A stretch of 64,000 nucleotides of DNA, from positions 1,088,356-1,152,355 of the forward strand of contig CAWCBL010000004.1 of NCBI GenBank assembly GCA_963793855.1, written 5' to 3'. The notes below the pieces were generated by a model. The model ran no database searches. It worked only from the letters and a program-made list of their open reading frames with translations, and was not told where the DNA came from. This DNA is from an uncultured beta proteobacterium. GTDB lineage: Bacteria; Pseudomonadota; Gammaproteobacteria; Burkholderiales; Burkholderiaceae_C. Shown here in pieces: positions 7,820 to 61,574 of the stretch. The first letter of the stretch is position 1. Every line of letters begins with the position of its first letter. The translations under genes and the position numbers were made by a program.

Positions 7820-7828
7820 AGGACCTCC

Positions 7829-38526: not shown

Positions 38527-38543
38527 ACTCGTGTGTCGCCGGT

Positions 38544-43447: not shown

Positions 43448-45070
43448 CTACAGGGTTAGCGGCGTCCAGCGATGGGGTAGCAGCTCTTCAATCAGATTAT
43501 TTTTGTGCGTTGGCAATCGTGTCAGAACGTCTTTCAAATAGGTGTACGGGTCATGGCCATTGAGCTTGGCGCTTTGGATCAGACTCATCACGGCCGCCGC
43601 CCGCTGGCCCGCGCGCAGTGAGCCCGCGAACAACCAGTTGCTCCGACCAATGGCAATCGACCGGATCTGGTTCTCAATCCAGTTGTTGTCGATGGGCAGG
43701 CGCCCGTCTTGCACAAACCTGGTCAGTGCAACCCAGCGTTTCAAGCTGTAGTCCAGCGCTTTGGCGGTGGCCGTCCCATCGGTAATACGTTGACGCTGCA
43801 ACAGCATCCACTGGTGCAAGGCATCAACCAGCAGCTTTGATTTGTCTTTGCGGATGCGGCCTCGTTCATCGGCGCTGAGATGTTTGACTTCCCGCTCCAC
43901 CTCATACAGCTGCCCGATGTAGATCAACGCCTGTTGGGCAATCTCGCTCTTGTTGCTGACAGAGAGGTCAAAGAACTTACGCCGGGCGTGCGCCATGCAG
44001 CCCACCTCGGTGATGGCCGCGCCGAAGCTGGCTTTGTAGCCACTGAAGTCGTCACAAACCAGACCACCGCTCCAGTCTCCCAGGAATGTTCTTGCATGCT
44101 CACCGGCGCGGGATTCGCAGAAGTCGTAGATTACGGCCTTTAAATCTTCAAAGGCCCCCGGAGCATAGGCCCAGAGGTAGGCCCGGTGGGTCTTCTTGTT
44201 GCCCGGCTTGAGCATGGCCACCGGGGTCTCATCTGCATGCAGCACGGCAGAGCGGAACATGGCCGTCTTCAGCGCATCGACCAGCGGCTGCAACTGCACG
44301 CCACACACGCCCACCCACTGCGCCAGGGTGGAGCGGGCGATGGCGTAGCCGGAACGCCCAAAGATGGTCTCCTGGCGGTACAGCGGCAAATGGTCAGAGT
44401 ACTTGGCCACCAGCACCTGTGCCAGCAAACCCGATGTGGGCAGGCCCTTGTCGATGATCTGGGCGGGTACCGGCGCTTGCCTCAAGGTCTGGCACTCGGA
44501 ACATACCCACTTGCCACGGACATGGCGTTGCACCGTGAGCACGCCCGGTGTGTAGTCCAGCTTCTCGCTGACGTCTTCGCCGATGCGCTTCAACTGGCAG
44601 CCGCAACTGCAGGTGGTGCTGTCGGGTTCGTGGTGCAACTCAACGCGGGGCAGCTCTGGTGGCAAGGCTGCGCGCTTGGGGCTCTGGCGGGGTTCTTTGG
44701 CTGCGTTGGCCGGTGGCGCCAGGTCCTGAAGCTCTTGCTCAATCGCGGCGATGTCGGCGTCGATGGTTTCATCCAGCAAACTGGCTTGGCCAGCGTCGAG
44801 CTGTTCGCGGCTGCGGCCAAACTTCCAGCGCTTGAGCACTGCCATCTCATGCGTGAGCTGGTCGATCTTGGCCTGGCGGTACAGGATCTCGCGGTCTTTG
44901 CTGGAGATGGTTTGGTCCAGGCTGGCGATTTGCTGGTCGAGTGCATTGATATGCAGATTGCGCGCACCGATCTCCTGATCGTTGCGAGCAACTTGTGCGA
45001 TCAAATCAGTGACGAGTTCGCGCAGTTGATCTGCGTTCAAGCCGGACAGTGATTCGGGGGCGACAACCAT
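43448..45070 (-). CDS. tnpC: IS66 transposase TnpC
   Basis: KYSDHLPLYRQ, LHADETP, CMAHARRKF, IDNNWIEN. Confidence 0.95.
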   Translation of the reverse strand: MVVAPESLSGLNADQLRELVTDLIAQVARNDQEIGARNLHINALDQQIASLDQTISSKDREILYRQAKIDQLTHEMAVLKRWKFGRSREQLDAGQASLLDETIDADIAAIEQELQDLAPPANAAKEPRQSPKRAALPPELPRVELHHEPDSTTCSCGCQLKRIGEDVSEKLDYTPGVLTVQRHVRGKWVCSECQTLRQAPVPAQIIDKGLPTSGLLAQVLVAKYSDHLPLYRQETIFGRSGYAIARSTLAQWVGVCGVQLQPLVDALKTAMFRSAVLHADETPVAMLKPGNKKTHRAYLWAYAPGAFEDLKAVIYDFCESRAGEHARTFLGDWSGGLVCDDFSGYKASFGAAITEVGCMAHARRKFFDLSVSNKSEIAQQALIYIGQLYEVEREVKHLSADERGRIRKDKSKLLVDALHQWMLLQRQRITDGTATAKALDYSLKRWVALTRFVQDGRLPIDNNWIENQIRSIAIGRSNWLFAGSLRAGQRAAAVMSLIQSAKLNGHDPYTYLKDVLTRLPTHKNNLIEELLPHRWTPLTL

Positions 45071-45152
45071 GAACGCAAAGTGTGCCCGTGCCTCCGAAAA
45101 TTGCCTATTGGCGCATCCCCCAATAGACGCAAACACACACCGCAATCCAGAA

Positions 45153-45506
45153 TCACACCACGCTGATAATGCCGCCCTCGCCGATGCGCGACCAGGGTAA
45201 GCCCAGTACCAAGGCATCCAATTGGGCGCGGCTCAGACTCACACGATTGACGCCACCGGGCGCACTTGCCGAACTTGTCTGGGGCCAAACGAAGTGGCCC
45301 CGGTGCAGCCGTCTGGCTGCCAGCCAAATGCCAATCCCGTCATGCACCAGCACCTTCATGCGGTTGGCGCGCCGGTTGGCAAAGAGGTAGGCTGTATGCG
45401 GGTGCGCGGCACCGAATACACCCACCACACGGGCTAGCGCCGTGTCCGTGCCAGCGCGCATGTCCAGGGGCACGGTGGACAGCCATACCGCGTCGATGCG
45501 AATCAC
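45153..45506 (-). CDS. tnpB: IS66 accessory protein TnpB
   Basis: DMRAG, FANRR, KVLVHDGIGIWLAARRL; GTG start overlaps tnpA stop. Confidence 0.92.
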   Translation of the reverse strand: MIRIDAVWLSTVPLDMRAGTDTALARVVGVFGAAHPHTAYLFANRRANRMKVLVHDGIGIWLAARRLHRGHFVWPQTSSASAPGGVNRVSLSRAQLDALVLGLPWSRIGEGGIISVV

Positions 45507-46162: not shown

Positions 46163-49100
46163 TCAGCCACTCTGCGCAGGCATCAAGTGAGACAATCGGT
46201 CGGGCATGTGCACAAGGCCATCCTCGCCACGCGGAGCAAGCTCGTGTACTTGATACGGGATACCGGAACTCCGGCATTTGCGGCTCAAGAACTCCGCCTC
46301 CGAGCTGTCGTGAGTCGACAGGATGATTTGATAGCCAAGACCGTTCACCAGCTGGCGGAGCAGATCCATAAAGGCACTCGCGTGGATGACATCGTTGTGC
46401 TGCAGGGGGTCGTCCAATAAAAGCCCTTTCCAACGCGACCACCCAAACGTAGTGCTTGCTGCAAGCAGTGCGGCAACACTCAGCGCGGAAAGTTGCCCTT
46501 CACTGAAGTAATGGTTCGGGTTCATTTGCATTTGCGTTGTCGACCCGTCAGCCGCACGCTTGACAATGCCAGGCCGGAGTTCTGAGCGTGTCGCCGAGTG
46601 CTCGGCGTGATAGCTGATGGATTCATCGGACCACGTCATCAACGTGCGAGCAAAGCGCTTGATGGTGTTGTTCAGAGGTACAAGAACTTCATCGGCATAC
46701 GTCCCGGCGCGCTGCTGCATGCCGCTGCCCACAATCTCGACTCTCCCCCTCGCATTCTGAGCAATGTTGATGTCGTCCCGCGCCTCCATCGCTCGCTTCG
46801 CTAGAAGGTCGCCCACTTGCCGTTCAGACTCCACGCACTCCGCGTTTAGCTTGCTCGCGATCTCATCTTCAAGCTTGCGAAGCCGCTCGTCTCCAAGCCA
46901 TTTGCGGTATCCGGTGACCAAGAGCTGGAGCGCCCCTTCGATTGACCCTATGCGGGTGGAATGCTCAACCAAGCGTGCCCGATTCTCAACAAGGAATGAT
47001 CCGCTCGGCTCTCTCGACTGACCTGCCTGTACCCAAAGTCGAATATGTTCCAGCCGAGCTTTCGAACACCACTCCTGCCTTGAGGTGAGGGAGGCAAGTG
47101 CTTCTGCCTCGCGTGCCTCTACTTCCTGTAGGGAATTGCGAGTTGCACGCGCAGCTACGACATTTTCCTGCGCCATTTTTACTTGCTCGCTTGTCTCTTT
47201 GGAGTGCTTCTCTGCGGCCGCGCGTTCGTTCTCAAGGTCAACTAGGACTCCCTGCTCTGGCGTCCAAAGGTCAGGAGACTGGAGCAAATTTGATCGAGCC
47301 ATATGAATCGCCGCGAAAGCATCAGACAGCACCTGCTGCAGTGACGAGTGCTTTGCAGCTTCCGCCTTCAGTTCAGCTTCAGTAGCTTCGATCTGAACCT
47401 TGAGGTCGTCGGGTGCGGCTCCTTCGGTGAGCCTCCCGTCGAGCGTACTAAGCTCCTGTTCAAGCCTAGCAACGCCGGTCTCGTCGTATGTGGAATCAGC
47501 AACACCACCTTCCTCCACCAGCTGTTGGCGCAATTCGCCGCCTCGCGCACGATGCGCTGCAAGGATTGCTTCTAGCTGCTGAATTTCGGCTAGATTAGCG
47601 TCCTCTTGAGTAAGCTGCTGCTGCAAGCCTTCGGCCTTGAGCCGGGCTTCCGCAAGCGCCGTGGCCAACTGAGTGGCTGGTGTTGCGCTCGATACTGCTT
47701 GAGCCCGGGCGAGCTCAGCCAATCGACCAGGAAGAAACGGGGTGGTGCAAACCGGGCAGGAGGTGTCGTCGTGTCCAAGCCGGTGCGCGATCGCGGACAC
47801 TGCCTCTGTGATCGCCTGCACACGATCATCGTGCCGCCGAAGTTCCGACATATAAGCCGAGATTTGTTCGCGGACAGTTGCCGCATCGACCTCCAATTCA
47901 GCGTGCTTCGTGCGAGGGTCGTTAGCCGTTCTCACTCCCAGTAACTTAGTGACTCGATCAATCTCTGCCTTCAGTCTGGCGAGCTCGTCGGAGATTTTAG
48001 CTAATTTTCGTACCTGCACAAGACGGTCAGCGAGTGCGCGACGTTCGGCGCGTTGAGCAATGGCCGCGGCTAGTTGGCCCCGAAGCTGAGAGACCTGGAC
48101 TTCCATCGCTGCTGAAGCTACTGCCGTCGAACTTAGATTGGTTTCCGCTGATCTCTGTCGGGCCTGCGCGTCGGCCAACTGCTTAGAAGCGGCGAAAACT
48201 CGATCGATGGCGACCAAGCGATTTATCGCCTGACCGCCCTTCGCCTCGCTGGTCGCTAGCAAGTACGTTTCCTCGCTTAGTTTGGCATGGGCGACCTTCA
48301 GGTTGTCTAGCGCCCCTGCATGTCTCTGCTTGGTCGACTCGAGTTGGCTGGCAACCGCCATGGCATCGGAATTGCCGGCATCAAATGCTGCAACCAACTG
48401 AGCAAGCGAGTCGACCTGCCTCTGGTCCTTCTCAATTTGATCGTTGACAGCGCGCAGGATGGTCGCAAGCCGGTCAAGAATGGACTCGGGTTGCTCCTGT
48501 ACTTGGACCGGCGACCACATGAAGGCTGGAGATATTGAGAGGATCTGTTCCGCCAGAAGTCCTGCTGATGAGCGAAGCTCCAACGGTTGAACGGCGTTCT
48601 CAGACGAGGCGAGCTGCTTGGCACGGTCCCTTTCCCCGAGGAGGGCGTTCCAGGTCACCAACGCTTCCGAAGCGACCTCAAGCCGTTTCGTCCGTTCCTC
48701 AATCGCACGTGTGAAGGCGCGCCGGACACCCTGACCGCTCATGCGCTCGCGCAACGCGTTTATCCGGTCAACACCGGCTGGTCCTTTGAGCGCTTCCCAC
48801 TGCTCGTTCGGTTTCTTGAGGGAGAATCGCTGTGTCGAGGTCTGTCCAAACAAGTGGGTAAGCGAAAGATAGCCATGCAGATCGGCTATCTCAGCCCAAT
48901 CGCGCTGCTTGAGCAGCCTTGCGATCCCGGCTTCATCCGTCTGGAAGCCGGCGCCGCGGTCTATGGGTAGACCTTCAGAGAACTGAAGGCTCACTCGATG
49001 ACTATCTGTCGGAGCCCCAATTCTTGTGAGCGGGTCTTGCGCCTTGCGACGGCCGTCGACGTGAATGTCGCTGAATCGACCGACCTGTCCCGTCAGGGCC

Positions 49101-49252
49101 CACTCGACTCCGTCAAAAAAACTGGTCTTTCCGAAGCCATTTCCCCCAGTGATGAGCGTTACGCTTGGTTCCGTAGGAAACTCGTAGGCATAGCTGTCGC
49201 CATAAACGCGAAAGTTTGAGAACTCAACGCTGCGAAGGTATATGCCGCTCAT
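46163..49252 (-). CDS. lmuB: SMC/Rad50-like ABC ATPase, long Lamassu LmuB
   Basis: Walker A GGNGFGKTS, long coiled coils with central CPVC hook, signature FSEGQ, Walker B LLLDDP, STHD. Confidence 0.85.
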   Translation of the reverse strand: MSGIYLRSVEFSNFRVYGDSYAYEFPTEPSVTLITGGNGFGKTSFFDGVEWALTGQVGRFSDIHVDGRRKAQDPLTRIGAPTDSHRVSLQFSEGLPIDRGAGFQTDEAGIARLLKQRDWAEIADLHGYLSLTHLFGQTSTQRFSLKKPNEQWEALKGPAGVDRINALRERMSGQGVRRAFTRAIEERTKRLEVASEALVTWNALLGERDRAKQLASSENAVQPLELRSSAGLLAEQILSISPAFMWSPVQVQEQPESILDRLATILRAVNDQIEKDQRQVDSLAQLVAAFDAGNSDAMAVASQLESTKQRHAGALDNLKVAHAKLSEETYLLATSEAKGGQAINRLVAIDRVFAASKQLADAQARQRSAETNLSSTAVASAAMEVQVSQLRGQLAAAIAQRAERRALADRLVQVRKLAKISDELARLKAEIDRVTKLLGVRTANDPRTKHAELEVDAATVREQISAYMSELRRHDDRVQAITEAVSAIAHRLGHDDTSCPVCTTPFLPGRLAELARAQAVSSATPATQLATALAEARLKAEGLQQQLTQEDANLAEIQQLEAILAAHRARGGELRQQLVEEGGVADSTYDETGVARLEQELSTLDGRLTEGAAPDDLKVQIEATEAELKAEAAKHSSLQQVLSDAFAAIHMARSNLLQSPDLWTPEQGVLVDLENERAAAEKHSKETSEQVKMAQENVVAARATRNSLQEVEAREAEALASLTSRQEWCSKARLEHIRLWVQAGQSREPSGSFLVENRARLVEHSTRIGSIEGALQLLVTGYRKWLGDERLRKLEDEIASKLNAECVESERQVGDLLAKRAMEARDDINIAQNARGRVEIVGSGMQQRAGTYADEVLVPLNNTIKRFARTLMTWSDESISYHAEHSATRSELRPGIVKRAADGSTTQMQMNPNHYFSEGQLSALSVAALLAASTTFGWSRWKGLLLDDPLQHNDVIHASAFMDLLRQLVNGLGYQIILSTHDSSEAEFLSRKCRSSGIPYQVHELAPRGEDGLVHMPDRLSHLMPAQSG

Positions 49253-49902
49253 ACGACGTCCCCTTCCTCAAGCGCAATCAGTTGCTCGACGAGTCCGCTG
49301 AAGTCGAGCTCCTGATTTTGAAGAGCTTCTTCCCATCCGTTCGGAAGAGAGAAGTTCGCCATGGTATCCAGCGACTCCGTTCTTTGCTCGGACGGCCAGG
49401 GGCGAGCAACGAATGTCCGCTCCAGAAAATCACGAGCCTCATCTACGGAGGGTTGGGTACCGAAGAGCCAGACCTGCTTGCGACATACCCGGTCATCCGC
49501 CTCGATCTCCGCCGCAAACTGGCGCCAGGTTCCGTCCATAAGAGCTCCGGGCGGCCCCACCAAGAACAGGTGCAGGTTCGGAGCCTCCGAGCCAAGCCAA
49601 GACCGAGCAATCGTCGCCTGGTTCCGATATCGTCGTAGCTGCGAACCGACGATTGGAGCGCTTGGCGGACCGCCGAGAACGCCAATGAGAACAGGAAATC
49701 CATCAAGCGACGTCGCATAGACGTGCTCCGGAAGATCGCTTTCCCGCCGCCTCAGAGAGTCTCCCGAAATCGCATCGCTTAGGACTTCTGAGTTAAATCT
49801 AGTTCCTCGCAGGGACGGAGACACGTCGGCCACTGTTGCGCCGATGGCTCTAGCCGCATCAAGCAGCATGGCTGCCAAATCAGACCCATCTCCAATTATC
49901 AT
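49249..49902 (-). CDS. lmuC: ABC-three-component middle component, Lamassu LmuC
   Basis: 217 aa between effector and ATPase; EIEADDRVCRKQV; ATGA overlap with lmuB. Confidence 0.72.
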   Translation of the reverse strand: MIIGDGSDLAAMLLDAARAIGATVADVSPSLRGTRFNSEVLSDAISGDSLRRRESDLPEHVYATSLDGFPVLIGVLGGPPSAPIVGSQLRRYRNQATIARSWLGSEAPNLHLFLVGPPGALMDGTWRQFAAEIEADDRVCRKQVWLFGTQPSVDEARDFLERTFVARPWPSEQRTESLDTMANFSLPNGWEEALQNQELDFSGLVEQLIALEEGDVV

Positions 49903-49903
49903 C

Positions 49904-52321
49904 TTATGCCTCTTCTAGGAATTGTTGCGACGCAATGGCGCGGCGTTCGAAGATCGCATGGAAGAACCGCTGCATCGCAGTGGCTCCTGACTGAAGTGCA
50001 ACCAGGAAGTCGTCGTCAGCACCGATGACAATGGGCTTGTCCGCAAGAGATGCTAGGCCAACCCTTGCTGGATCCGTCGAGCTCTGATCAAGCCGGAGGT
50101 CACCCTCCAGCAGCTGCACTGCCTCCTGCAGCTGAGAAAGCAGGACAACGTCGGTGGTCCATGATTGCCATGCAGCGGTACGACCTCGAAGCTCGCGCTG
50201 GTTGATCCAGCCGACGCCGCAAGTGTGCCCGGTCACTACTTCAAAAGCCATGTTTCCCGGATGATGGCCGGCCGGCTCCATCGCCCGGCCAGAGCACGCC
50301 GAAAAAGCTAGCCCAAAAAGCGTTGGCTTCGTCAAATACGGTCGCATGACCTTCGGACCGAGTCGAACCAAAGCCCCGTCGCCCGCGTCGACTTGGTCGT
50401 CTACGCTTGCAAGCAGCCGAAGGAAGCGCCGTGTCATGGTCGGATCCGCGGTCAAGGGAGCATGCCACAGGACCCACACTTCCCAGAGCGTTTGTCGCAA
50501 GGTGGCTTCTATTGGCCAGCCGGTAGCTATCTCGGCAGGTCCGAGGATTCCAAAAATGGAGTCGTGCAGTCGCTGCAGAAGATGGGCATCGAGCCGCTCA
50601 TGGACCGTTGCGACGACCTCTTCTATCGGCAGCTCTAGAAGTACGGGAAGCATCGCGGGAGGCGACTGCCAGTCTTTGATATGGCAATGGCAGTTGAGGT
50701 CGGGGCCTGGGAGGAACCGGTCGGCGCACAGGGCGACCATGCCGGCCTGCCACGAGGCAGAATCGCGGGCATACAGCACGAAGTCTTGCGCGTGTGCGCC
50801 AAGACGCGCAATTGCTGGCAAGAGCCTGGAGGCGTTCGCCGCATTGATATCGCAGTAGACCGCAATCGAGGTCCCCCCCGCCCAAAGTTGGACGATATCG
50901 TCCGGGCCAACGTCGCCAGCCCAAACAATGCGGCCAGCAACTGACAGTGAGATTGAAACGGAGAGAGTTGGCTGAGCGTTAGCAGCCGGAAGAGCAGCGG
51001 CGACCACTGCTGCCGCGGGCTGTGCGGCGACTTTGAAGAGCTCAAACCTGGCGCGCGCGGTCGCGGTCAAGATCGGGGACTCGGGACGGCTTGGGACAGC
51101 AGCCGCACCCGGAAACCCCGCCAGCAGGCCTGTGAAGGGGGATAGGTTGGAAGCAGCGTCGGGGCCGAGGCGCAGGAACCTGCGGTATGGAAGGAAGGGC
51201 ACCTCGCCTATCAGGGTGACGTCACCCATCGATGGGGCTGGGCCGGCAAAGTTGACACCAACTTTTAGAGTGATTGCGTTGATGTCGATCTCCCTGTACG
51301 CCTCGATAACAAGGAACGTGGCAACGCGATTGTGAAGAGCAGTTGCCCTGCGGAGCAGCCTTGGTTCATTTGTGTGGAGCCATATCCGGACGTTTGGACG
51401 TAGACGGTCGCTGATCTCCGCCCACGTTGCGGACGGCACGCAATGCCGCACTCTCATTTGATACTCGTGTAGCAGATCCAAATCTGCGCCATCGGCCCAG
51501 GCTTCTTGTTCAATAGTTTCGAGTACCGCGCGGGCGGCACCGAGGTCCAAGCCAGCTAGCAGCTCGCAGATTTGGTTGTGGTCAAGCGCGTTGAAGGCAG
51601 CCATTTGAAAGTCGACCAGGCCACCATCTCCGTTTCCAGAAATGAAAATAATGGGATTCGCAATGGGCGAAAGGATCGGGCCTGCCAATCCAGATGGCGT
51701 CCAATATGGCGGCGTGTCGCCGTCCAGGCATCGTTCAAGGCCAAATCCGATTGCGAGAATCACCGCGTCGTAGATGCGGTTTATTGCTGCGCCGTCTCCA
51801 GCCACCACTCGAATGAGGCCGAGGGAATTGGGCAGAAGTTTTACGACTGGCTGCCCCAGATGCGACTTCAAGACTGAGCTGTGGATCGTGCGTTCAAACT
51901 CGTCACGCAGAGCGTCCGCTACGTCGCCAGCTGGCCCGGCTTGCCAGTTCATGATGGGTAGGCCAGCGTCGACCTCGTCAGAACCTACGGCAGGCCAGTC
52001 GTAGAAGTGTGGGTGGAGATATCGCCTACTGCCGTGTTGAAGTTCCAGCACTCTCGTTCTACTCTCGAATAGATCTAGCAGCGCCAACCCGGGGACTGCC
52101 TTTGCAAGAGCGACAGCTGCTGTCATGCCAGCCACACCGCCCCCCACGATCGCGATCTTGCCTTTGGGGCGAACCAAGCCTTCCGACAGAATTGCATCGA
52201 CGAGATTGAGCGCGCGGACTTGCTGCGAATAGACGGTCACCCTCTTTTCGAAGCTGCCAAGGATGAACACGCTTCGTGTGCTTGGAACAAGCGCTGCACT
52301 TACGATCTCGTGTGGCGTCAT
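49904..52321 (-). CDS. lmuA: Flavin-dependent oxidoreductase (FMO-like) effector with C-terminal adaptor domain, Lamassu LmuA
   Basis: IVGGGVAG FAD motif, LAIGFG, second SGNGDGG motif, HPHFYDWP; 1 bp from lmuC. Confidence 0.78.
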   Translation of the reverse strand: MTPHEIVSAALVPSTRSVFILGSFEKRVTVYSQQVRALNLVDAILSEGLVRPKGKIAIVGGGVAGMTAAVALAKAVPGLALLDLFESRTRVLELQHGSRRYLHPHFYDWPAVGSDEVDAGLPIMNWQAGPAGDVADALRDEFERTIHSSVLKSHLGQPVVKLLPNSLGLIRVVAGDGAAINRIYDAVILAIGFGLERCLDGDTPPYWTPSGLAGPILSPIANPIIFISGNGDGGLVDFQMAAFNALDHNQICELLAGLDLGAARAVLETIEQEAWADGADLDLLHEYQMRVRHCVPSATWAEISDRLRPNVRIWLHTNEPRLLRRATALHNRVATFLVIEAYREIDINAITLKVGVNFAGPAPSMGDVTLIGEVPFLPYRRFLRLGPDAASNLSPFTGLLAGFPGAAAVPSRPESPILTATARARFELFKVAAQPAAAVVAAALPAANAQPTLSVSISLSVAGRIVWAGDVGPDDIVQLWAGGTSIAVYCDINAANASRLLPAIARLGAHAQDFVLYARDSASWQAGMVALCADRFLPGPDLNCHCHIKDWQSPPAMLPVLLELPIEEVVATVHERLDAHLLQRLHDSIFGILGPAEIATGWPIEATLRQTLWEVWVLWHAPLTADPTMTRRFLRLLASVDDQVDAGDGALVRLGPKVMRPYLTKPTLFGLAFSACSGRAMEPAGHHPGNMAFEVVTGHTCGVGWINQRELRGRTAAWQSWTTDVVLLSQLQEAVQLLEGDLRLDQSSTDPARVGLASLADKPIVIGADDDFLVALQSGATAMQRFFHAIFERRAIASQQFLEEA

Positions 52322-52418: not shown

Positions 52419-53021
52419 TCACTCAGGAAAAAAGTCTCGTATGTCAGCAAATCCTCGCAAACGAGAACTCATCACTATGTCGTCATAGGCTTGCCGTGCC
52501 CCTCCCATCTGGACAAGGCTCATCTCGCCTTTGCATGAGCGCTCAGGGTGACACCAATATGCACTGGTGTCGAATGAGTAGTGAGCGCGGCAAGCGTACG
52601 GACGTGTTTCGTAGACAGAACACACATCATCCACAAGAAAAGGACATGGAACCCCCGAAAACTCTCCTTCTGAATGACGAACTGGGCGTTTGACCACAGC
52701 CATAGGTTTTCGGGTTACCGTTGAGAGGCGTTCAGCCTCAATGATTGAAATGCTGACATTCATCTTGCAGCAGTCTGAGCAGCCCTTACCGCAAGCAATG
52801 TAGGGTTGCACTGCTTGACTGACTTCTGCCATCAAGGAGTATATTTTTCCAAGCTTGGACTTGGCAGATGAATTATCGCGCCGGAGCTGCCCCACAATCA
52901 CGTCATCTCGGGTATCCAGGGTCTTCGGCATAGCTGATAAGAACTCGGTTAACCTTAATCGTGAACGTGCCTTTGCTTCTACAAAGTCTGGCGAATTTTC
53001 GGGAACGGAGAGGTTTTTCAT
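52419..53021 (-). CDS. YkgJ/UPF0153 family Cys-cluster (Fe-S or Zn) protein
   Basis: CGKGCSDCC, CPFL, CSVYETRPYACR. Confidence 0.85.
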   Translation of the reverse strand: MKNLSVPENSPDFVEAKARSRLRLTEFLSAMPKTLDTRDDVIVGQLRRDNSSAKSKLGKIYSLMAEVSQAVQPYIACGKGCSDCCKMNVSISIIEAERLSTVTRKPMAVVKRPVRHSEGEFSGVPCPFLVDDVCSVYETRPYACRAHYSFDTSAYWCHPERSCKGEMSLVQMGGARQAYDDIVMSSRLRGFADIRDFFPE

Positions 53022-53024
53022 GGC

Positions 53025-54905
53025 TTAACGATCGAGGATGCGACTCAGCGGCCCATTGATGTTTGCGAAAGCTCCAATGACTCCGTCCATCACAAAGTCA
53101 ATTGCGCGCCCGTATCCTTGTTGGAGGCTCGCAGTGTCAAAGCCAAGGTCCTGAAGGCGCGGCAGAGCATTTGCGAAGGTGTCGTGGGCGTCGGCAATAC
53201 GTAGGTCGTTAGCCACGAACAAAGAGGCCAATTTTTCGTTACTCACTTTCCAGCCCTCCGGTTCATTTGCATTGATGAATGCATTCATATCCTCATCATG
53301 AGCATCCAGCCGCTCCGCGATGTTGAGAAGGGCCTGGAGCAGTTTCATGGTTCCCCGGTCACCGACCTCTCTCTTAGGGCAACCTGCGGCCTCGAGAATG
53401 CGTTTCAGGAATCCGTTCGGGACTTTCTGCCAGATTTCATGAAGACTCTTACACCGAGCGAGGAAGTCCTGCTCTGACATAGACAAGGGTGCTACCTGAG
53501 CCAGACGGCTCAATTGTGGATAGTGAAGCCACCCGTTTGCCTTGATGTCGCCGGCAGAAAAACCGACAAGATCCTCGGAAGACTTGTTCTGTCCAAACAT
53601 AGCTCCGAGTTGGGAGAGGTTTTCGCCCAACGTCAGAAGCTCATCTAGGAGCCGTTTTGTCTTTGATGCGATGTTTTCTTCGTTTGGATCAAACTGAGCT
53701 GCTACGGCAGGATCTAGTGCAAACGACTGTGCATGGAGTATTTCTTGCTCGGGCTTGGGTTTATAAAGCTCTCGAAGTGAAACGCGAATTAGATTTCGCC
53801 CAACGCGCCTACAGTCCGTGAAGCTCCATTGACCACGATATGACGGGCTGCAATGCCACTGTCCATGGGAAAACATGGGTGTTGTGTCATAGAAACCACT
53901 CTTCTCGTAGCGCTCAAGGAATCGGTCGTCCAGATGAAGGATCTGGACGGACCCAATCGAGTCCGCGCTTGCGTGAGTTACCAAGCCTTGAACACCGGGC
54001 CAGGCGATGTTGTTAGCCGATCGCTCGGGACAGAGCTCACATGAAACGGCGTCAACGGAAGCCCAGACCTGCAGGAGAAGGCCTCCATCATTCTCTCGGA
54101 TATCAATCTCATACCAGCCTGGGTCTGGCTTGATGTCAACATGCTGTGTGCCTTTCATGAGTTGTCGAAGTCCAGGATCATCAGGCAGTTGTGCCTGATA
54201 AAAAAAAGTTCTAACACCTCTTGCGCCGCGCAACCACAAATATTTTCGCAAGTGGGCGTTAGACATCCGCCACGTGACGTTGCGAGAAGAGTCGAAGTGA
54301 TACTCGCGCGACACCTCGCCTTCGGCTATTGCGAACTCTGGAATTCCTAGATCATCGTAAACAAGGCATTGCTTTTCATTGCCAAGGCACCTGGGCGTGA
54401 GACCGAGGGCCATCCACACCTTCTCGGCGAGGTTGTAGGTGTAATGAGAACCATCACCCCACGAGGCAACGATGTAGTCATAGCCGGACATGCTGGGGGA
54501 GAAATCTTCGGATGAACCTTTGTCGCCTAGCACGGGCTCTGAGAACGACACAACCCCGTCCCCGGCTTCATCAAATATCGGCACTGGACTATTAATCGAT
54601 TCGGGCACGACGGCAAGGAGCATGTGAACAAACTCGGCGTTAGGCCCGTGGTGGTCGAACACAAGGTCGCTGGTGACTTCAACTTGCTCCAAGGGATCAA
54701 GCCCTACTGGACTGAGTAGGGCGCGAAGACGCACCGACAGCGCAGTTCCTTGGATTGGAAAAGAGGCAAGATAGTCTATGCTGGGCATAAGGTGTCTCGG
54801 CTGATAAGGCGTGGTTGCAGACGTTTCAACAGAGAGTCCGGCGTCCGCAATGAGTGCCGTTACGGACCGTCGGACTTTTCTCCTCACCGCTTTAAGTTCC
54901 CACAT
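53025..54905 (-). CDS. Hypothetical ~590-630 aa protein with C-terminal HEPN-like RxxxxH motif
   Basis: Long ORF; NDLRIADAH in a helical C-terminal region; start may be 54788 (MPSID); stop 3 bp before the YkgJ start. Confidence 0.7.
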   Translation of the reverse strand: MWELKAVRRKVRRSVTALIADAGLSVETSATTPYQPRHLMPSIDYLASFPIQGTALSVRLRALLSPVGLDPLEQVEVTSDLVFDHHGPNAEFVHMLLAVVPESINSPVPIFDEAGDGVVSFSEPVLGDKGSSEDFSPSMSGYDYIVASWGDGSHYTYNLAEKVWMALGLTPRCLGNEKQCLVYDDLGIPEFAIAEGEVSREYHFDSSRNVTWRMSNAHLRKYLWLRGARGVRTFFYQAQLPDDPGLRQLMKGTQHVDIKPDPGWYEIDIRENDGGLLLQVWASVDAVSCELCPERSANNIAWPGVQGLVTHASADSIGSVQILHLDDRFLERYEKSGFYDTTPMFSHGQWHCSPSYRGQWSFTDCRRVGRNLIRVSLRELYKPKPEQEILHAQSFALDPAVAAQFDPNEENIASKTKRLLDELLTLGENLSQLGAMFGQNKSSEDLVGFSAGDIKANGWLHYPQLSRLAQVAPLSMSEQDFLARCKSLHEIWQKVPNGFLKRILEAAGCPKREVGDRGTMKLLQALLNIAERLDAHDEDMNAFINANEPEGWKVSNEKLASLFVANDLRIADAHDTFANALPRLQDLGFDTASLQQGYGRAIDFVMDGVIGAFANINGPLSRILDR

Positions 54906-54949: not shown

Positions 54950-56569
54950 CTACTTCTTATCGCGCCAATCTTTATTGTAAAGAAGATCGTTCTGACTCAA
55001 CTTTAAGACAGTGAATTTCTTAAGGAGCTCTTCCGCTTGAGATCCGAATTTTTTTGCCTCGTCAAAAGACAAGAAAATCTGCTTTGATTTGATAGCAGCC
55101 AAAATTCTGAGGATTCTCTTTATGGCGGCAACCTCTATGTTCTTGTAGATAACAGAATCGTGTATAACAAACGGCAATCTGGTTAGAGAGAGCATGGCCA
55201 TATCAAATCCGATCAAACCAGCATATGACTTCCCAGTCCCCGTATCCTCAGGGGAGGTAAAGCTATAGGAATTAGCACTTTTTACTCGTAATTCCGAACT
55301 ATTTCTGCTGGGGCCGTAGACAACCTTGTTGAACGCCTTCAACTTCAAATTGATTTTCGCCTCAATCTCAAGGAAGATCTTTGTATAAATTGAATCCAAT
55401 CGTTGGCCAGATATCTTTATCACCTCTTCTAGCTGCACCTTTTGCTTAAAATATCTGTTTTCTTCAGTCGCTTTATCCGTAATTTCTTTCAAGTCAAATA
55501 CTCGCTTGAATAAATCATCAGGCATACCCTTTGATTTCAACGTTGTTTGAATTTGTTGCTCTAACGATATAATCTCGCTCGTAAGAATGGATTCTTCCAA
55601 TTGAATTGCAGCAAGCTCATTTTTGAGTTCCTTCTTGACGATACTTCCAATTTTTTGATGGAACGCATCTACTTGCTCAAGTCTCTCCACGTCAACAGTT
55701 GGAAAGAATTCAGCCACCAGAGCTATGTTGGCGGCAAGCCGCGGTGTTATGCCAGAAACCTCTCGCTGCAATCTTTTTACTTTGCTCTGAAGTTCACTTC
55801 TTAAGTTTGCAAGCTCGTTCTTCCGCTGCTGCATACGCTGCAAGCTTTCGTCAAACAAAGCCTCGTAAGCATTAAGTGCTCCACTGAATCCGTGCTTGAG
55901 TTGTTCAATCTGCACAGTATTTTCAGTAATAGTCTTAGTGTTCACTTCGTACTGAGTCTTGTTTATATTTGGAATAATTTTCGCGTTCATTGAACCAGTT
56001 ATTAGCTTTTTTCGATCTTTCTGCTCGTCAATCACCTTCTTCTCTGCAGCGATATCTGCACTCCGGCTAAAGAGGTCTATTAAACGGCTAATTGCTGATC
56101 CTGAAGGTTCTTTGAGCGCCGAAATAAAAGGCTGATCCGGCTCCAGACCTCCTTTCCTCCAAATGCGAGCAAAGGGACCAACAATTGAACGAAACGAACC
56201 TTCTAGACTTTCTAGTCCATAAAGCTCCTTCAACCTCCTGCGGTAATACTCCACGGGCAACTCGTTCAGCTTGGTATATTCCTTATCACAGACATACACC
56301 ACATCTGAAGCATCAGTTGAACGAGAGAAGAAATACGGCTGCCCCGCAAATACAAATGAAAAATTATAGCGATGGTGGCCAAGCGCTCTTATGGCTCCAG
56401 CCTCATCTTTAAGGAAGCTGTCACCTCCTTGTGCGAAGTCTATAACCATCAATGCCGTAGACTTACCAATAGAATTCTTGGCATCATCATCGCCCAATAT
56501 GATGTTGAGACCTTGATGAAAGGAAATTCTTGCGTTATTGAACAAAGGGCACTGGATCTCTTTAAGCAT
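54950..56569 (-). CDS. lmuB: Short ABC ATPase (DUF2326-like), short Lamassu LmuB
   Basis: Walker A variant NSIGKST, short coiled coil, DTGTGKS, FVIHDS Walker B; ATG 56569 overlaps upstream stop. Confidence 0.8.
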   Translation of the reverse strand: MLKEIQCPLFNNARISFHQGLNIILGDDDAKNSIGKSTALMVIDFAQGGDSFLKDEAGAIRALGHHRYNFSFVFAGQPYFFSRSTDASDVVYVCDKEYTKLNELPVEYYRRRLKELYGLESLEGSFRSIVGPFARIWRKGGLEPDQPFISALKEPSGSAISRLIDLFSRSADIAAEKKVIDEQKDRKKLITGSMNAKIIPNINKTQYEVNTKTITENTVQIEQLKHGFSGALNAYEALFDESLQRMQQRKNELANLRSELQSKVKRLQREVSGITPRLAANIALVAEFFPTVDVERLEQVDAFHQKIGSIVKKELKNELAAIQLEESILTSEIISLEQQIQTTLKSKGMPDDLFKRVFDLKEITDKATEENRYFKQKVQLEEVIKISGQRLDSIYTKIFLEIEAKINLKLKAFNKVVYGPSRNSSELRVKSANSYSFTSPEDTGTGKSYAGLIGFDMAMLSLTRLPFVIHDSVIYKNIEVAAIKRILRILAAIKSKQIFLSFDEAKKFGSQAEELLKKFTVLKLSQNDLLYNKDWRDKK

Positions 56570-56783
56570 ACTCAATCAACCCCGAATCATCTTTAATATT
56601 TACCAACCCCATAACGTACAAGACATCAATCGCATGGAGAAATTCGCTGGCATCGAAGAAGGAATCTTTAGTTCTATGATATACATCAAGAACACTTTCA
56701 TTTTCTTTTTTATTAGCGAGAATAAATCTCATCTTGAAGATAGTGGATTCCTCAAGCCTTGTAAACTTACTCGGAACCAACAT
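56562..56783 (-). CDS. lmuC: Small middle component, short Lamassu LmuC
   Basis: 73 aa MLVPSKF...AIDVLYVMGLV, overlapping both neighbours. Confidence 0.75.
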   Translation of the reverse strand: MLVPSKFTRLEESTIFKMRFILANKKENESVLDVYHRTKDSFFDASEFLHAIDVLYVMGLVNIKDDSGLIEYA

Positions 56784-57546
56784 CAAATACCTCGCAATTC
56801 TGAACAAAAAATGAAGTCAATACCTTTGCAGCTAAGATTGGCTTATTAGTTTTTGCACTGATCCACTGCGCAACATAATTGAATACCAGATCCTTATTAT
56901 CTGGATTCTGCTTGTTTACAGCAAGATAATACGAGTTAATTTGATTCTGAAGAATTCTGACCGAGACTTGGTCTTGCTGCTCCAGCTTCCGAATATGATC
57001 CCGTATCCGAACATAGAAACTAATAGCATTAACTTTTATTTCTCGCTTCTGAAGTGGACTCATCCCTGTTTTGAGCTTTATATCCACCGTTGAAATATCA
57101 AATTTCGCGGGCGATAGCGGAATGTCATCAAAATCAGACGTAGCGATTGCATCCAATATTTCATAGACTTCCTCTTGAATGGTATGCTGCGACGCAGTGA
57201 GTTTTGCTTGCACCGCACTTAAATATCCTTCCTTAATTTTTCTTATTTTTACAAGTTCATCAAACTTAAAATCTTTATCGTATTTGGTATGACAGGTTGG
57301 GCACAGAGCAACGACGTTCGCAAGAGCATTGATATCAGGAGGAACGGGATATCCGATAAGCGCGTTAACTTGTGCGGGCGTAGGGTTCAAAGGATAGATA
57401 TGGGCTACCTCATAGCCCTTGCTAGGTTTCTTTGAATCTTTCTTTTGAAAAATAATTGGCAGCGTACATAAAGGACAAAATCCTTCAGTTTCCGCATAGA
57501 GAATACTGTGCTCATCGTCACTATATTTTTTCCTCTTCTCTGTCAT
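56767..57546 (-). CDS. lmuA: HNH endonuclease effector with C-terminal adaptor domain, short Lamassu LmuA
   Basis: CPLC...EVAHIYP...NVVALCPTCHTKYD; C-terminus VLTSFFVQNCEVF. Confidence 0.8.
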   Translation of the reverse strand: MTEKRKKYSDDEHSILYAETEGFCPLCTLPIIFQKKDSKKPSKGYEVAHIYPLNPTPAQVNALIGYPVPPDINALANVVALCPTCHTKYDKDFKFDELVKIRKIKEGYLSAVQAKLTASQHTIQEEVYEILDAIATSDFDDIPLSPAKFDISTVDIKLKTGMSPLQKREIKVNAISFYVRIRDHIRKLEQQDQVSVRILQNQINSYYLAVNKQNPDNKDLVFNYVAQWISAKTNKPILAAKVLTSFFVQNCEVFDVGSE

Positions 57547-57907
57547 CTATATGTCCTTGCATCTATACGCCAATCCTCCCCAAATACTACATGTAAAAAA
57601 TGTTGTTTAAATGTGACAAATATGTTTCATCACCCCTGAAAGTTCATCGGAAACCGCATGAAAATGTGGTTTGAGGTACAGCTCAATGTTCAGAGCTTCC
57701 AAAGATTGATTCAGTGAGCGCCCGGTCCTTATGGACATGATTTCGTCGCACTCAGCGAAAACTAAGGGAACATTCGAGAAAACCGAGCAATCTGCGCATG
57801 TTGGCAGATGCGCGGCCATGCGCATCTGCTGGCAACGGAGAACTTTGGAGCCCTGTCAGATTTCCGCCATTGAGTAATGGTGTTGTCGCCGACCGAAAAT
57901 TGACATC

Positions 57908-58872
57908 TGGGGGTGCGGCGTAAATCTTGGACTGGTTTATGCCGTAAGTCCGAGACTCGCCCGGTATTCGATGGGACTGAGTGAGCCAAGGGATAGCGGC
58001 AACGACCAGGCGTTCCTGCTTCATGAGGCGTTGTACGACTTTCTCGGAGATGTGAAGCTGGCGCCGGCCAAGTGCTGCACGCATTCGCCTGTAACCGTAG
58101 CAACGGTGATTGCTCTGGAAGACATCGGTGATGGCAACACGTGCGTCAGCGTATTTGTCAGGACTCTTTAGCCGGGCGCAGTGATAGAAGTATGAGCTAC
58201 GGGCCAGGTCAAGTTCGGCAAAGAGCTCAGAGAGCGTATAGGTGTGCTTCAGGGCGTCAACTAGCAGTGTCTTCTCCTGGTTGCTCAGGAGTGGCAGGTC
58301 GACGCCCAGGCCTTTTTTTAACAGTTCGTTCGCCCTCTTCAAGAGATCGTGTTCCAACTGCAATTTCCGGATGCCGCGTTGCAGCGCTTCGACTTGCTGC
58401 TCCAGGTCCAATCGCTGAGGATCGGGCGGTGAATCGTTGTGGAGTTTCATGGATGCGGGCACCTCAGGACCGAGTAGTTGATTTTTCCATTTGTACAACG
58501 TCGGCCTGCTCACGGCTAGCTGTTGAGCAATGGCTTGCGCACTTGTCTGCCGGGTGCAAAGCGCAATGACTGCCGCTTGCTTGAGCTCTTGAGGGCGCTG
58601 TATGCCGCGAGCTTTGCCAACAACGTTCTTTCTCCTTTCGGGGTGCAGCTCATTGACCCAGGCTGCTAGCGTATCGCGGCACGGATACCCCAGTGCCTTT
58701 CGGGTTCCAGCAAGGCAACGATCATGGTTTAGGTAATGCTCAACGGCCACTTTCTTCTGTTGGTCTGAATACTTCGACCTTGAAAGTGCATAGCCCAGCG
58801 GCAAATCGCGACCCTGTTCGTAGTCTCGATGCCAGCTCTTGAGCGCATTCTTGGTTGGGTAACCCAAACGAC
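57908..58872 (-). mobile_element. Truncated second IS1353-like copy lacking the DDE core and the 5' end
   Basis: Same terminal IR (TGGGGGTGCGGCG at 57908); homologous to 16412-17910 with ~530 bp deleted near 57990; stops at RLGYPTKN. Confidence 0.85.
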
Positions 58873-58885
58873 AACAGGAATCCCC

Positions 58886-59605
58886 ATGATGATGAACACG
58901 ACGATTGAACAACTGCGCGACCTGCGCCTGCCCGGCATGGCCACAGGGCTGCAGGAACAACTCAGCCAGGCCGGCATGACCGCACTGAGCTTTGAGGAGC
59001 GCCTGAGCCTGCTGGTGGACCGTGAAGTGCACTGGCGCAATGACAAGCGCCAAGCCCGCTTGCTCAAGGATGCCAAACTGAAGTACAGCCAAGCCAGCAT
59101 TGAAGACCTGAACACCAGCGCCGGGCGCGGCCTGGAGCGCAAGGCTGTGATGAGCCTGGCGCTGGGCGACTGGATTGCGAGCGGCCACAGCGTGCTGATC
59201 ACCGGCGCCACCGGGGTGGGCAAGTCCTGGCTGGCCTGCGCGCTGGCCCAATACGCCTGCCGCCGGGGGCACTCCGCGTTCTACCAACGGGTGCCCCGCC
59301 TGGGTGAAGAACTGCGAATTCGTCACGGCAACGGCACGTTCGGCAAATGGCTGCTGCAACTGGCCAAGACGGACGTTCTGCTGCTGGACGACTGGGGCAT
59401 GGCGGGCATCGACAGCCAGACCCGTGCAGACCTGTTGGAAATCATTGACGACCGGGCTGCCAACAAGGCCACCATCATCACCAGCCAATTACCCATCGAC
59501 CACTGGCATGCCTGGATCGGCGACGCCACCATCGCCGACGCCATGCTGGACCGCTTGATGCAGCGCCATCACCGTTTCACCCTGACGGGCGACTCTCTGC
59601 GCTGA
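58886..59605 (+). CDS. istB: IS21-family helper ATPase IstB, orphaned (istA absent)
   Basis: GATGVGKS Walker A, LLLLDDWG Walker B, ITSQLP, DAMLDRL, GDSLR. Confidence 0.92.
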   Translation: MMMNTTIEQLRDLRLPGMATGLQEQLSQAGMTALSFEERLSLLVDREVHWRNDKRQARLLKDAKLKYSQASIEDLNTSAGRGLERKAVMSLALGDWIASGHSVLITGATGVGKSWLACALAQYACRRGHSAFYQRVPRLGEELRIRHGNGTFGKWLLQLAKTDVLLLDDWGMAGIDSQTRADLLEIIDDRAANKATIITSQLPIDHWHAWIGDATIADAMLDRLMQRHHRFTLTGDSLR

Positions 59606-61088: not shown

Positions 61089-61574
61089 ATGAATTCCACC
61101 AGCCCAACCAGAGCGACCAGCACCGTTCAGACATCATTTATGGACTTTGATGGCGTACTGCATCCTGAGTTCTGCCATGAGTCCAAGCACTTCATGCACA
61201 GAGATGCCTTCGAAGCTGTCATGCGCGTATTGTCAAATGTCGACTTAGTGATCTCCAGCACCTGGCGCCACCACCGCTCACTGGATGAGCTAAAGGCGCT
61301 CTTCTCGTTAGATATTGCCGAGCGCGTGATTGGCGCTACGCCCCTTTATGCGCGGCTTGAGGGGATTCCAGGGACGCTGGAAGGCTACGAACGAGAGGCC
61401 GAATGCCAAGCTTGGTTGCGTGCCAACGGACGTATTGCTCAGCGGTGGTTGGCTCTGGATGACCGTTCATGGAACTTCAGGCCCTTCAATCGTAATGTCT
61501 TTTTGGTCGATGGGAACCTCGGGTTGGATGCCGGCGCGGCCAAGGCCCTTCTCGTACGCATGACATCCAACTGA
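61089..61574 (+). CDS. HAD-family phosphatase (Swiss-Army-Knife RNA-repair-like)
   Basis: DFDGVLHP (DxD), VISSTWR, WLALDD. Confidence 0.82.
   Translation: MNSTSPTRATSTVQTSFMDFDGVLHPEFCHESKHFMHRDAFEAVMRVLSNVDLVISSTWRHHRSLDELKALFSLDIAERVIGATPLYARLEGIPGTLEGYEREAECQAWLRANGRIAQRWLALDDRSWNFRPFNRNVFLVDGNLGLDAGAAKALLVRMTSN

What the first reader, a model, noticed from the sequence alone, without database searches (positions are those of the whole stretch)
52419..54905. Candidate undescribed defence system: HEPN-motif protein plus YkgJ Cys-cluster partner
Two genes 3 bp apart sit between two Lamassu systems in the same orientation, yet belong to neither. The large protein has a beta-rich, aromatic N-terminal ~350 aa of no family I recognise, followed by a helical domain with NDLRIADAH, the RxxxxH signature of HEPN RNases. 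The partner has the full CxxxCxxCC / CPFL / CxxYxxRPxxCR metal cluster set. Hypothesis: a phage-triggered RNase gated, modified or neutralised by a metal/Fe-S partner. I know no named system with this pairing.
Basis: partly seen in the sequence, partly recalled or inferred. Interest (0 to 1): 0.8.

Follow-up and report, generated by a model that had tools for sequence, protein, structure and literature searches.

The report
Defence-island orphan protein plus YkgJ rider
Two adjacent genes wedged between known anti-phage systems are real but are not a fixed pair: the large one belongs to a widespread family with a fold matching nothing in the libraries searched (apparently the family of the published 'BpiB05') and usually travels alone in bacterial immune islands, while the small cysteine-cluster protein is a free-moving add-on also found behind other immune effector genes.

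Summary
Two co-oriented genes lie 3 bp apart between a Lamassu LmuA-C-B operon and an ABC-3C HNH/DUF2326 pair, and they belong to neither.

- The large gene most likely starts at 54788 (587 aa). It has no Pfam, NCBIfam, PADLOC or PDB match. Its AlphaFold model is confident (pLDDT 92) but matches no fold in PDB or BFVD.
- R530 and H535 (Rx4H) are invariant in 102 homologues down to about 20% identity. No HEPN model or HEPN structure matches, so HEPN rests on the motif alone.
- A 76%-identical protein is annotated 'putative BpiB05', a 587-aa metagenomic 'AHL hydrolase', so the family is not wholly unnamed.
Only 1 of 48 species genomes with the large gene has the YkgJ gene beside it, and only 2 of 58 YkgJ loci have the large gene. 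Relatives at 76-82% identity stand alone, beside Gabija-like genes or as cargo of a conjugative element.
- The YkgJ subfamily also follows TIR and Pycsar effectors.

Best reading: a candidate single-gene defence protein with an R/H active site, plus an optional Fe-S-type accessory gene. Nothing has been tested experimentally.

The parts
53025..54788 (-). BpiB05-family gene, 587 aa (P0405). The ORF is open up to 54905, but 54788 is the likely start.
   Evidence: homologues 585-590 aa; DNA identity to L009 starts at 54793. No Pfam, NCBIfam, PADLOC, PHROG or PDB hit.
53694..54788 (-). N-terminal beta-rich domain (about residues 1-365), fold not matched. Invariant W110, G129, L130, P150, D288, L291, W321, R328, R331.
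   Evidence: AlphaFold pLDDT 92.4. Foldseek on PDB and BFVD gave no hit at E<=0.001, only weak recurring PCNA/beta-clamp hits. Invariants.
53028..53693 (-). C-terminal all-helical domain (residues 366-587). Invariant R445, L483, R530, H535, D564.
   Evidence: AlphaFold of the domain alone, pLDDT 96.3. Foldseek on PDB, best E 1.1. Invariants.
53184..53201 (-). Rx4H motif (R530-I-A-D-A-H535). Family consensus is LFaLxDLRxxxAH.
   Evidence: Invariant in 59-sequence and 102-sequence alignments down to about 20% identity. Aligns in register with the HepT RNxxxH motif, but in a test that has no power.
52419..53021 (-). YkgJ/CxxCxxCC cysteine-cluster gene, 200 aa (P0002). Its subfamily has a conserved N-terminal ENSSAKSKLGKIY motif and a C-terminal FADIRDFFP tail.
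   Evidence: Pfam PF03692, E 8e-8; alignment A5.
52767..52793 (-). First Cys cluster, C77-x3-C81-x2-C84-C85.
   Evidence: Invariant in 29 subfamily members.
52551..52646 (-). Second Cys set, C126 (CPFL), C134, C144 (RPxxCR) and C157.
   Evidence: C126, C134 and C144 invariant; C157 conserved in at least 90%.
54950..57546 (-). Context, not part of the unit: upstream two-gene ABC-3C system (HNH+CTD11 effector at 56767-57546; DUF2326 ATPase at 54950-56575), about 40% GC.
46163..52321 (-). Context, not part of the unit: Lamassu LmuA (FAD-type N-terminus plus CTD2), LmuC and LmuB, about 59% GC.

Best explanation
The large gene is a member of a widespread 587-aa single-architecture family, apparently the BpiB05 family. 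It behaves as a self-sufficient accessory gene of defence islands and mobile elements. I propose it is a single-protein anti-phage (abortive-infection type) module. In this model the beta-rich N-terminal domain senses or binds a target, and the helical C-terminal domain carries a catalytic Arg/His pair (Rx4H) that most likely cleaves RNA in the metal-independent manner of HEPN nucleases. The YkgJ gene is not an obligate partner. It is a mobile accessory gene encoding an eight-cysteine, probably [4Fe-4S]-binding protein. It has been captured at the 3' end of several unrelated effector genes (TIR, PycTM, and here the BpiB05-like gene), and in this clade it is co-transcribed with the large gene. 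By analogy with the two characterised proteins that carry this kind of cysteine motif (FliB and DpdM), it may be an amine N-methyltransferase-type enzyme that tunes or complements the effector. Shown here: the gene anatomy, the invariance of R and H, the unmatched fold, the sporadic pairing, and the defence-island contexts. Inferred: defence function, RNase chemistry, Fe-S binding, and any modifying role of YkgJ.
For: The family is large and uniform in length: 676 hits, and representatives down to about 20% identity are all around 587 aa. R530 and H535, plus R328, R331, R445, D288 and D564, are invariant in 102 sequences, an Arg-rich set that suggests a nucleic-acid or phosphate substrate. Distribution is patchy: 1 of 24 same-genus genomes carries a homologue, and that one is only 25% identical. 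Neighbours are known or candidate defence genes: this window's Lamassu, ABC-3C and nSTAND3 genes; LmuB (L017), a caspase-DEAD HamB-like protein (L019) and Avs3 (L023); GajB x3, AbiEii x2, mad3 x2 and NACHT; a Gabija-like pair beside the 82%-identical copy in an integrase-bounded island; and AbiJ and Shedu (L118). One copy sits inside a type I R-M operon, hsdM-hsdM-X-hsdS-helicase-hsdR (L119), the position PrrC occupies in its own R-M operon (my own knowledge). Another is solo cargo between repA and the relaxase/traG genes of a conjugative element. Nine copies lie on IMG/VR prophage-type contigs, mostly near the ends. The partner is dispensable. The YkgJ subfamily directly follows DUF1883-TIR/PDC-S66 (2-bp gap), PDC-S35 TIR, PycC-E1E2-PycTM and PycC-E2-PycTM. 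FliB has a related Cys motif, eight Cys, and is a [4Fe-4S] lysine methyltransferase (PMC8598068). The YkgJ homologue DpdM was proposed as a preQ1 methyltransferase and tested by expression in E. coli (PMC10516641; only the start of that result was in the passage I read). The pair moves as a unit of exactly two ORFs into at least four different contexts.
Against: There are no experimental data on defence. No HEPN fold or profile was detected. Four of six sampled distant family members sit in nondescript or metabolic neighbourhoods. The one published claim for the family name (BpiB05) is AHL hydrolysis, not defence. Enrichment near defence genes was counted only roughly and without a matched background control. 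The family has no hit in isolate phages and few on plasmids. The methyltransferase analogy for YkgJ rests on distant superfamily members.
Confidence: 0.4

Rival explanations
1. One reading: an obligate two-gene system in which a HEPN RNase is gated, modified or neutralised by its metal/Fe-S partner.
For: The 3-nt gap suggests co-transcription or translational coupling. The two ORFs move together as a unit in the window, Polaromonas OV174, L058 and L182. R and H are invariant.
Against: The pairing occurs in 1 of 48 species genomes and 2 of 58 reciprocal loci. Large genes at 82%, 79% and 76% identity lack YkgJ, so the partner cannot be an essential antitoxin or activator. L057 keeps an intact YkgJ gene next to only a 64-codon remnant of the large gene. 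The YkgJ subfamily serves other effectors or stands alone. No HEPN fold was found.
Confidence: 0.12
2. The large protein is what its family name says: a quorum-quenching N-acyl-homoserine-lactone hydrolase (BpiB05-type), and its island location is incidental.
For: A 76%-identical 587-aa protein is annotated 'putative BpiB05'. BpiB05 is 587 aa and 70 kDa, and is reported to degrade 3-oxo-C8-HSL and to reduce motility, pyocyanin and biofilm in P. aeruginosa. Conserved acidic residues (D145, D288, E295, D564, D568) could bind a metal.
Against: The link is by annotation only; the BpiB05 sequence (ABU51109.1) could not be compared here. There is no HxHxDH-type motif, Ser-hydrolase motif or other known lactonase motif, and only one invariant His. 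No known hydrolase fold was found. Neighbours are defence, R-M and mobile-element genes; no quorum-sensing or lactone-metabolism family appeared among the neighbours that were annotated. Reduced quorum-sensing read-outs could be a side effect of a growth-impairing effector (inference).
Confidence: 0.1
3. Both genes are accessory cargo with a non-immune role, such as a stress, mobile-element-maintenance or unknown enzymatic function, and they merely accumulate in variable islands.
For: Four of six distant homologues lie among ordinary genes. Many YkgJ-subfamily genes stand alone with divergent neighbours. Neighbours of the large gene include housekeeping island borders such as GyrB, RecA and CinA. 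No function has been tested.
Against: Known or candidate defence genes recur within two genes of the family in unrelated genomes. YkgJ repeatedly sits directly behind TIR and Pycsar effectors.
Confidence: 0.25

Closest known systems
BpiB05 (GenBank ABU51109.1; Bijtenhoorn et al. 2011, J Biotechnol 155:86)
   Same: Same length (587 aa). A 76%-identical Paraburkholderia fungorum protein carries the name 'putative BpiB05'. Reviews describe BpiB05 as unlike any known lactonase.
   Different: BpiB05 is described as a metal-dependent AHL hydrolase. The conserved residues, unmatched fold and defence-island contexts found here do not suggest a lactonase. Direct sequence comparison was not possible, and the original paper is not held.
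HEPN-superfamily RNases of conflict systems (HepT/DUF86 toxins, AbiJ/Abi_C, PrrC/RloC inside type I R-M operons)
   Same: Invariant Rx4H with a small residue before H (LRxxxAH), placed at the end of a helix in an all-helical domain. The motif and the preceding helix align in register with HepT's mvgfRNiaVH. One family member is embedded in a type I R-M operon as PrrC is (the PrrC comparison is my own knowledge).
   Different: No Pfam HEPN model and no solved HEPN structure matches. The domain has 222 aa and 13 helices, larger than what I recall for a HEPN bundle. The polar residue after R that I recall as common in HEPN motifs is not conserved.
YkgJ / CxxCxxCC (PF03692) proteins; FliB [4Fe-4S] flagellin lysine methyltransferase; phage DpdM preQ1 methyltransferase
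   Same: The Pfam match is above the cut-off and eight Cys are conserved. FliB has a related Cys motif, eight conserved Cys and one [4Fe-4S] cluster. DpdM is a YkgJ homologue.
   Different: P0002 belongs to a distinct 200-aa subfamily with its own N-terminal helix region and FADIRDFFP tail, found in defence islands. No substrate or cofactor is known for it.
PADLOC single-gene candidates PDC-S35 and PDC-S66 (TIR) and Pycsar (PycC + PycTM)
   Same: In other genomes these effector genes are followed, co-oriented and at short distance, by a member of the same YkgJ subfamily, just as the BpiB05-like gene is here.
   Different: The effector proteins are unrelated to the BpiB05 family. Those systems are defined without any YkgJ component.
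Lamassu / ABC-3C systems (the flanking genes)
   Same: Same strand and same island. In L017, L018 and L053 a BpiB05-family gene lies two genes downstream of an LmuB-like gene.
   Different: Neither target protein matches any LmuA, LmuB, LmuC or ABC-3C model. The GC steps mark separate acquisitions.

Membership tests
HEPN superfamily | Conserved Rx4-6H motif | tested here: met
   R530 and H535 are invariant at fixed spacing in 59-sequence and 102-sequence alignments.
HEPN superfamily | Detectable profile or fold similarity to a known HEPN family or structure | tested here: not met
   Pfam scan of 59 diverse members at E<=5 gave no HEPN model. A profile search against PDB sequences gave nothing. 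Foldseek on the pLDDT-96 C-domain model gave a best E of 1.1 with no HEPN entry among the 50 hits listed. hhalign against HepT scored 18.3 with the motif in register, but true HEPN pairs scored no better (21.6 and 11.3), so that test has no power.
HEPN superfamily | Metal-independent RNase activity that depends on R and H | not testable with these tools
   Needs biochemistry.
BpiB05 family | Sequence homology to BpiB05 (ABU51109.1) | tested here: inconclusive
   The only evidence is the depositor's and UniRef's name on a 76%-identical protein, plus the identical length of 587 aa. BpiB05 itself was not found in ten clusters inspected.
BpiB05 family | Hydrolysis of N-acyl-homoserine lactones | not testable with these tools
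   Known from literature claims only.
YkgJ / CxxCxxCC (PF03692) | Match to the Pfam model above the gathering score | tested here: met
   33.3 bits against a cut-off of 23, covering residues 77-157.
YkgJ / CxxCxxCC (PF03692) | Conserved cysteine set (CxxxCxxCC plus downstream Cys) | tested here: met
   C77, C81, C84, C85, C126, C134 and C144 are invariant and C157 is conserved in at least 90% of 29 members.
YkgJ / CxxCxxCC (PF03692) | Binding of an Fe-S cluster or zinc | not testable with these tools
   Analogy to FliB only.
Conserved two-gene defence system (BpiB05-like + YkgJ) | Partners co-occur across the family | tested here: not met
   1 of 48 species genomes and 2 of 58 YkgJ loci. Solo large genes at 82%, 79% and 76% identity.
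Toxin-antitoxin pair | The toxin is never found without its adjacent antitoxin | tested here: not met
   Same counts as above. Neither gene has a second copy elsewhere in the own genome.
Lamassu | Match to LmuA, LmuB or LmuC models | tested here: not met
   No PADLOC or Pfam ABC-3C hit for either target protein.

The most novel reading that the evidence does not exclude
The P0002-type YkgJ proteins are a previously unrecognised, shared accessory factor of innate immunity: an Fe-S, N-methyltransferase-like enzyme that unrelated abortive-infection effectors (TIR NADases, Pycsar membrane effectors, the BpiB05-like protein) have each recruited to their 3' end, for example as a common infection or redox sensor or as an enzyme that licenses or restrains the effector. 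In the same reading, the BpiB05 family is a new-fold single-protein RNase-type defence system whose published quorum-quenching activity is a side effect.
Probability: 0.15. Interest if true: 0.8.

Novelty: new variant of a known kind. Interest (0 to 1): 0.55.

Why it matters
If the large protein is a defence effector, a family with hundreds of members from Proteobacteria to Chloroflexi would gain a biological role. That family currently has no Pfam model and no solved or recognisable fold, and its only label is a 2011 quorum-quenching report that would then need re-examination. If the YkgJ subfamily really acts with several unrelated effectors, it would be a new kind of shared immune accessory. 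It would also give a first physiological setting for a poorly understood Fe-S protein superfamily. Both ideas can be tested with simple cloning in laboratory strains.

Tried and rejected
- Sequence searches for the large protein (Pfam, NCBIfam, PADLOC, PHROGs, PDB): nothing.
- Foldseek of the whole model against PDB and BFVD: only noise, with weak recurring PCNA/beta-clamp hits at E 0.1-0.3 and probability below 0.1. I do not rely on these.
- Foldseek of the C-terminal domain alone: no HEPN entry.
- Home-made hhalign against HepT, DUF4145 and Abi_C alignments built from genome hits: the positive controls failed (true HEPN pairs gave probability of 4.5% or less), so the result is uninformative beyond motif register.
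- Tested whether the recurrent 574-aa and ~1072-aa upstream neighbours are paralogues of the family: they are not. Both are absent from this genome.
- Tried to find BpiB05 itself among named cluster members: not found. The original paper is not held.
- Promoter and terminator scan of the pair: nothing above the shuffled expectation.
- Isolate-phage collection: no hits for either protein or for the viral YkgJ-like proteins.
- PDB sequence look-up of neighbours of viral YkgJ-like genes: nothing.
- Rejected: YkgJ as part of the downstream Lamassu operon. The pair recurs without Lamassu in L009, L058 and L182.
- Rejected: YkgJ as an antitoxin. The large gene is mostly solo.
Full report
**Observation**

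The window carries eight co-oriented minus-strand genes between 46163 and 57546.
- The downstream trio is a clear Lamassu system: LmuA (FAD-type N-terminus plus ABC-3C CTD2), LmuC and LmuB, with PADLOC E-values of 1e-214, 4e-59 and 6e-267.
- The upstream pair is an HNH+CTD11 effector with a DUF2326 ATPase. This is an ABC-3C/Lamassu-like two-gene system whose best PADLOC match is candidate PDC-M68.
- Between them lie the two target ORFs, separated by TAA-GCC-ATG.
- GC content steps from about 40% to about 52% to about 59% across the three modules.
- nSTAND3, IS66 and IS3 genes nearby confirm a mosaic defence island.
- Neither target protein matches any PADLOC model.

The 626-aa ORF is probably read from ATG 54788, giving 587 aa. 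Homologues are almost all 585-590 aa, and DNA identity to the Polaromonas copy starts at 54793.

**The large protein**

It has no hit in Pfam, NCBIfam, PADLOC, PHROGs or PDB sequences. Even so, it belongs to a large family of one architecture:
- 676 hits in the 90%-identity cluster database.
- 342 representatives at 50% clustering, with full-length members down to about 20% identity and all around 587 aa.

A 102-sequence alignment gives these invariant residues: W110, G129, L130, P150, D288, L291, W321, R328, R331, R445, L483, R530, H535 and D564.

AlphaFold with this alignment gives a confident model (pLDDT 92.4, pTM 0.83). It has a beta-rich domain to about residue 345, short mixed elements to about residue 365, and an all-helical domain over 373-587. 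Foldseek finds nothing at E<=0.001 in PDB or BFVD.

The helical domain modelled alone (pLDDT 96.3) also finds nothing: the best E is 1.1 and no HEPN structure appears among the 50 hits listed. Scanning 59 diverse members against Pfam at E<=5 gives no recurring family and no HEPN model.

My own hhalign test placed the motif and its preceding helix in register with HepT's mvgfRNiaVH (score 18.3). True HEPN pairs scored no better in the same set-up (21.6 and 11.3), and controls scored 11-15. The test therefore lacks power and the result is only 'compatible'.

Conclusion: an R/H active-site-like dyad is well supported; membership of HEPN is not shown.

**A name exists**

A 76%-identical 587-aa protein on a Paraburkholderia fungorum plasmid is deposited as 'putative bpiB05', and UniRef calls it BpiB05. 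BpiB05 (ABU51109.1; 587 aa, 70 kDa) came from a soil-metagenome screen. [quoted passage not shown]

I could not compare the sequence itself, so this link is at annotation level only. The family's conserved residues are Arg-rich with a single invariant His and no lactonase motif. Its neighbourhoods do not look like quorum-quenching metabolism.

**Is it a two-gene system?**

No, not as a family property.
- Among 48 species-representative genomes encoding the large protein, only Polaromonas sp. OV174 (85% identity) has a P0002 homologue next to it.
- Among 58 metagenomic loci with a P0002-subfamily gene, only two have the large gene. One of those holds just a 64-codon remnant of it beside an intact YkgJ gene.
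- Close relatives stand alone. The 82%-identical copy lies in an integrase-bounded island beside a Gabija-like ATPase/UvrD pair. The 79% copy (L038) has no partner. The 76% copy is solo cargo between repA and the relaxase/traG genes of a conjugative element.

Within the closest clade, however, the pair does move as a unit. Identity to Polaromonas spans exactly the two ORFs, 54793 to 52419. The pair recurs with the same 3-bp spacing after a ribonucleotide reductase gene and before a ParE/Phd module (L182), and again in L058.

So the association is real but recent and optional. An antitoxin or obligate-activator role for YkgJ is excluded.

**Where the large gene lives**

Within two genes of it in other genomes I found:
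- LmuB, a caspase-DEAD HamB-like helicase and Avs3.
- GajB x3, AbiEii x2, mad3 x2 and a NACHT NTPase.
- AbiJ and Shedu in an integrase island.

One distant member sits inside a type I R-M operon, hsdM-hsdM-X-hsdS-helicase-hsdR, with gaps of 1-4 bp. This is the position the HEPN anticodon nuclease PrrC occupies in its own R-M operon (my own knowledge).

The family is patchy. One of 24 same-genus genomes carries a homologue, and that one is only 25% identical. Nine copies occur on IMG/VR contigs, mostly near the ends. Eight plasmids carry it and no isolate phage does.

Against the defence reading, four of six sampled distant members lie among ordinary genes. I also had no matched background for an enrichment statistic.

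Three unknown protein families recur immediately upstream: 574 aa in 8 loci, about 1072 aa in 6 loci and 1040 aa in 3 loci. They are not paralogues of the family, have no Pfam or PADLOC hit, and are absent from this genome.

**The YkgJ gene**

P0002 matches PF03692. It belongs to a rare subfamily (112 clusters) with eight conserved Cys, a conserved N-terminal ENSSAKSKLGKIY segment and a FADIRDFFP tail.

Outside this clade, the same subfamily follows co-oriented effector genes:
- a DUF1883-TIR protein (PDC-S66/ThsB-like), with a 2-bp gap, behind a type III R-M system;
- a PDC-S35 TIR protein;
- PycC + E1-E2 + PycTM;
- PycC + E2 + PycTM;
- an ABC ATPase;
- a DUF4011 helicase-nuclease.

In other loci it stands alone. 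It is therefore a promiscuous add-on to effector genes.

Earlier notes of this scan describe other YkgJ-type genes ending unrelated defence operons. I treat those notes as leads, and my subfamily data agree with them.

Two characterised proteins with this kind of cysteine motif are N-methyltransferases:
- FliB is a [4Fe-4S] flagellin lysine methyltransferase with eight conserved Cys (PMC8598068).
- Phage DpdM, a YkgJ homologue, was proposed as the preQ1 methyltransferase and tested by expression in E. coli (PMC10516641; only the start of that result was in the passage I read).

Relatives at 25-40% identity occur on 71 IMG/VR viral contigs.

**Mechanism proposed (confidence about 0.4)**

The 587-aa protein acts as a stand-alone immune module. 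The N-terminal beta domain serves as sensor or target binder. The C-terminal helical domain provides an Arg/His catalytic pair, most plausibly for RNA cleavage.

YkgJ is an optional, probably Fe-S-binding enzyme-like accessory, co-transcribed with the large gene in this clade. No promoter or terminator separates the two genes.

The rival explanations and the results that would refute each are given in their own sections.

**Limits**

- No AlphaFold DB library was available.

**Verdict**

The 'HEPN + YkgJ system' reading is only partly supported. What remains is a credible, untested single-gene defence candidate with a fold that matches nothing in the libraries searched, plus a mobile cysteine-cluster accessory gene. 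The scan had already noted this same stretch (e1-5276093).

Noticed in passing
L119:3762-15593: A distant BpiB05-family gene (7001-8770) sits inside a type I R-M operon, between two hsdM genes and hsdS, followed by a DEAD/ResIII helicase and hsdR, with gaps of 1-4 bp. This is a PrrC-like position.
   Followed up: partly
L017:8257-9981, L044:5037-9973, L027:260-5367, L019:6773-9895: Three unknown protein families recur directly upstream of BpiB05-family genes: about 574 aa in 8 of 48 genomes, about 1072 aa in 6, and 1040 aa in 3. None has a Pfam or PADLOC hit. They are possible further partners or independent orphan defence genes.
   Followed up: partly
L192-L262 (IMG/VR contigs): YkgJ-like proteins 25-40% identical to P0002, including the C-terminal tail, occur on 71 predicted viral contigs, often after a recurrent ~584-aa protein and a ~182-aa protein. 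They have no match in isolate phages or in PDB.
   Followed up: partly
L057:2237-3068: An intact YkgJ gene (82% identity) is preceded by only the last ~64 codons of a BpiB05-family gene, so the large gene was truncated while YkgJ was kept.
   Followed up: no
window 39261-43073 (-): A 1270-aa protein with an nSTAND3 NTPase domain (Avs/STAND-like) lies next to an IS66 transposase (43448-45217). This is a further defence candidate in the same island.
   Followed up: no
window 37648-39062 (-): An RNase_T-type exonuclease fused to a BRCT domain (292 aa), with an adjacent 172-aa protein of no family.
   Followed up: no
window 57752-59488 and 43448-45217: IS3-type transposase remnants (a long composite ORF) and an IS66 element bracket the defence genes. 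Together with GC steps of 40/52/59% this points to piecewise assembly of the island.
   Followed up: no
window 61089-61574 (+) and 33802-35013 (-): A HAD_SAK_2 domain protein ('Swiss Army Knife' RNA-repair-associated) and a Fic/DOC protein lie at the island's edges.
   Followed up: no
L006:5031-8597, L091:1778-7570: Pycsar-type operons with E2 or E1-E2 genes and a PycTM effector end in a P0002-subfamily YkgJ gene. This YkgJ component is not among the PADLOC Pycsar models that matched here.
   Followed up: partly
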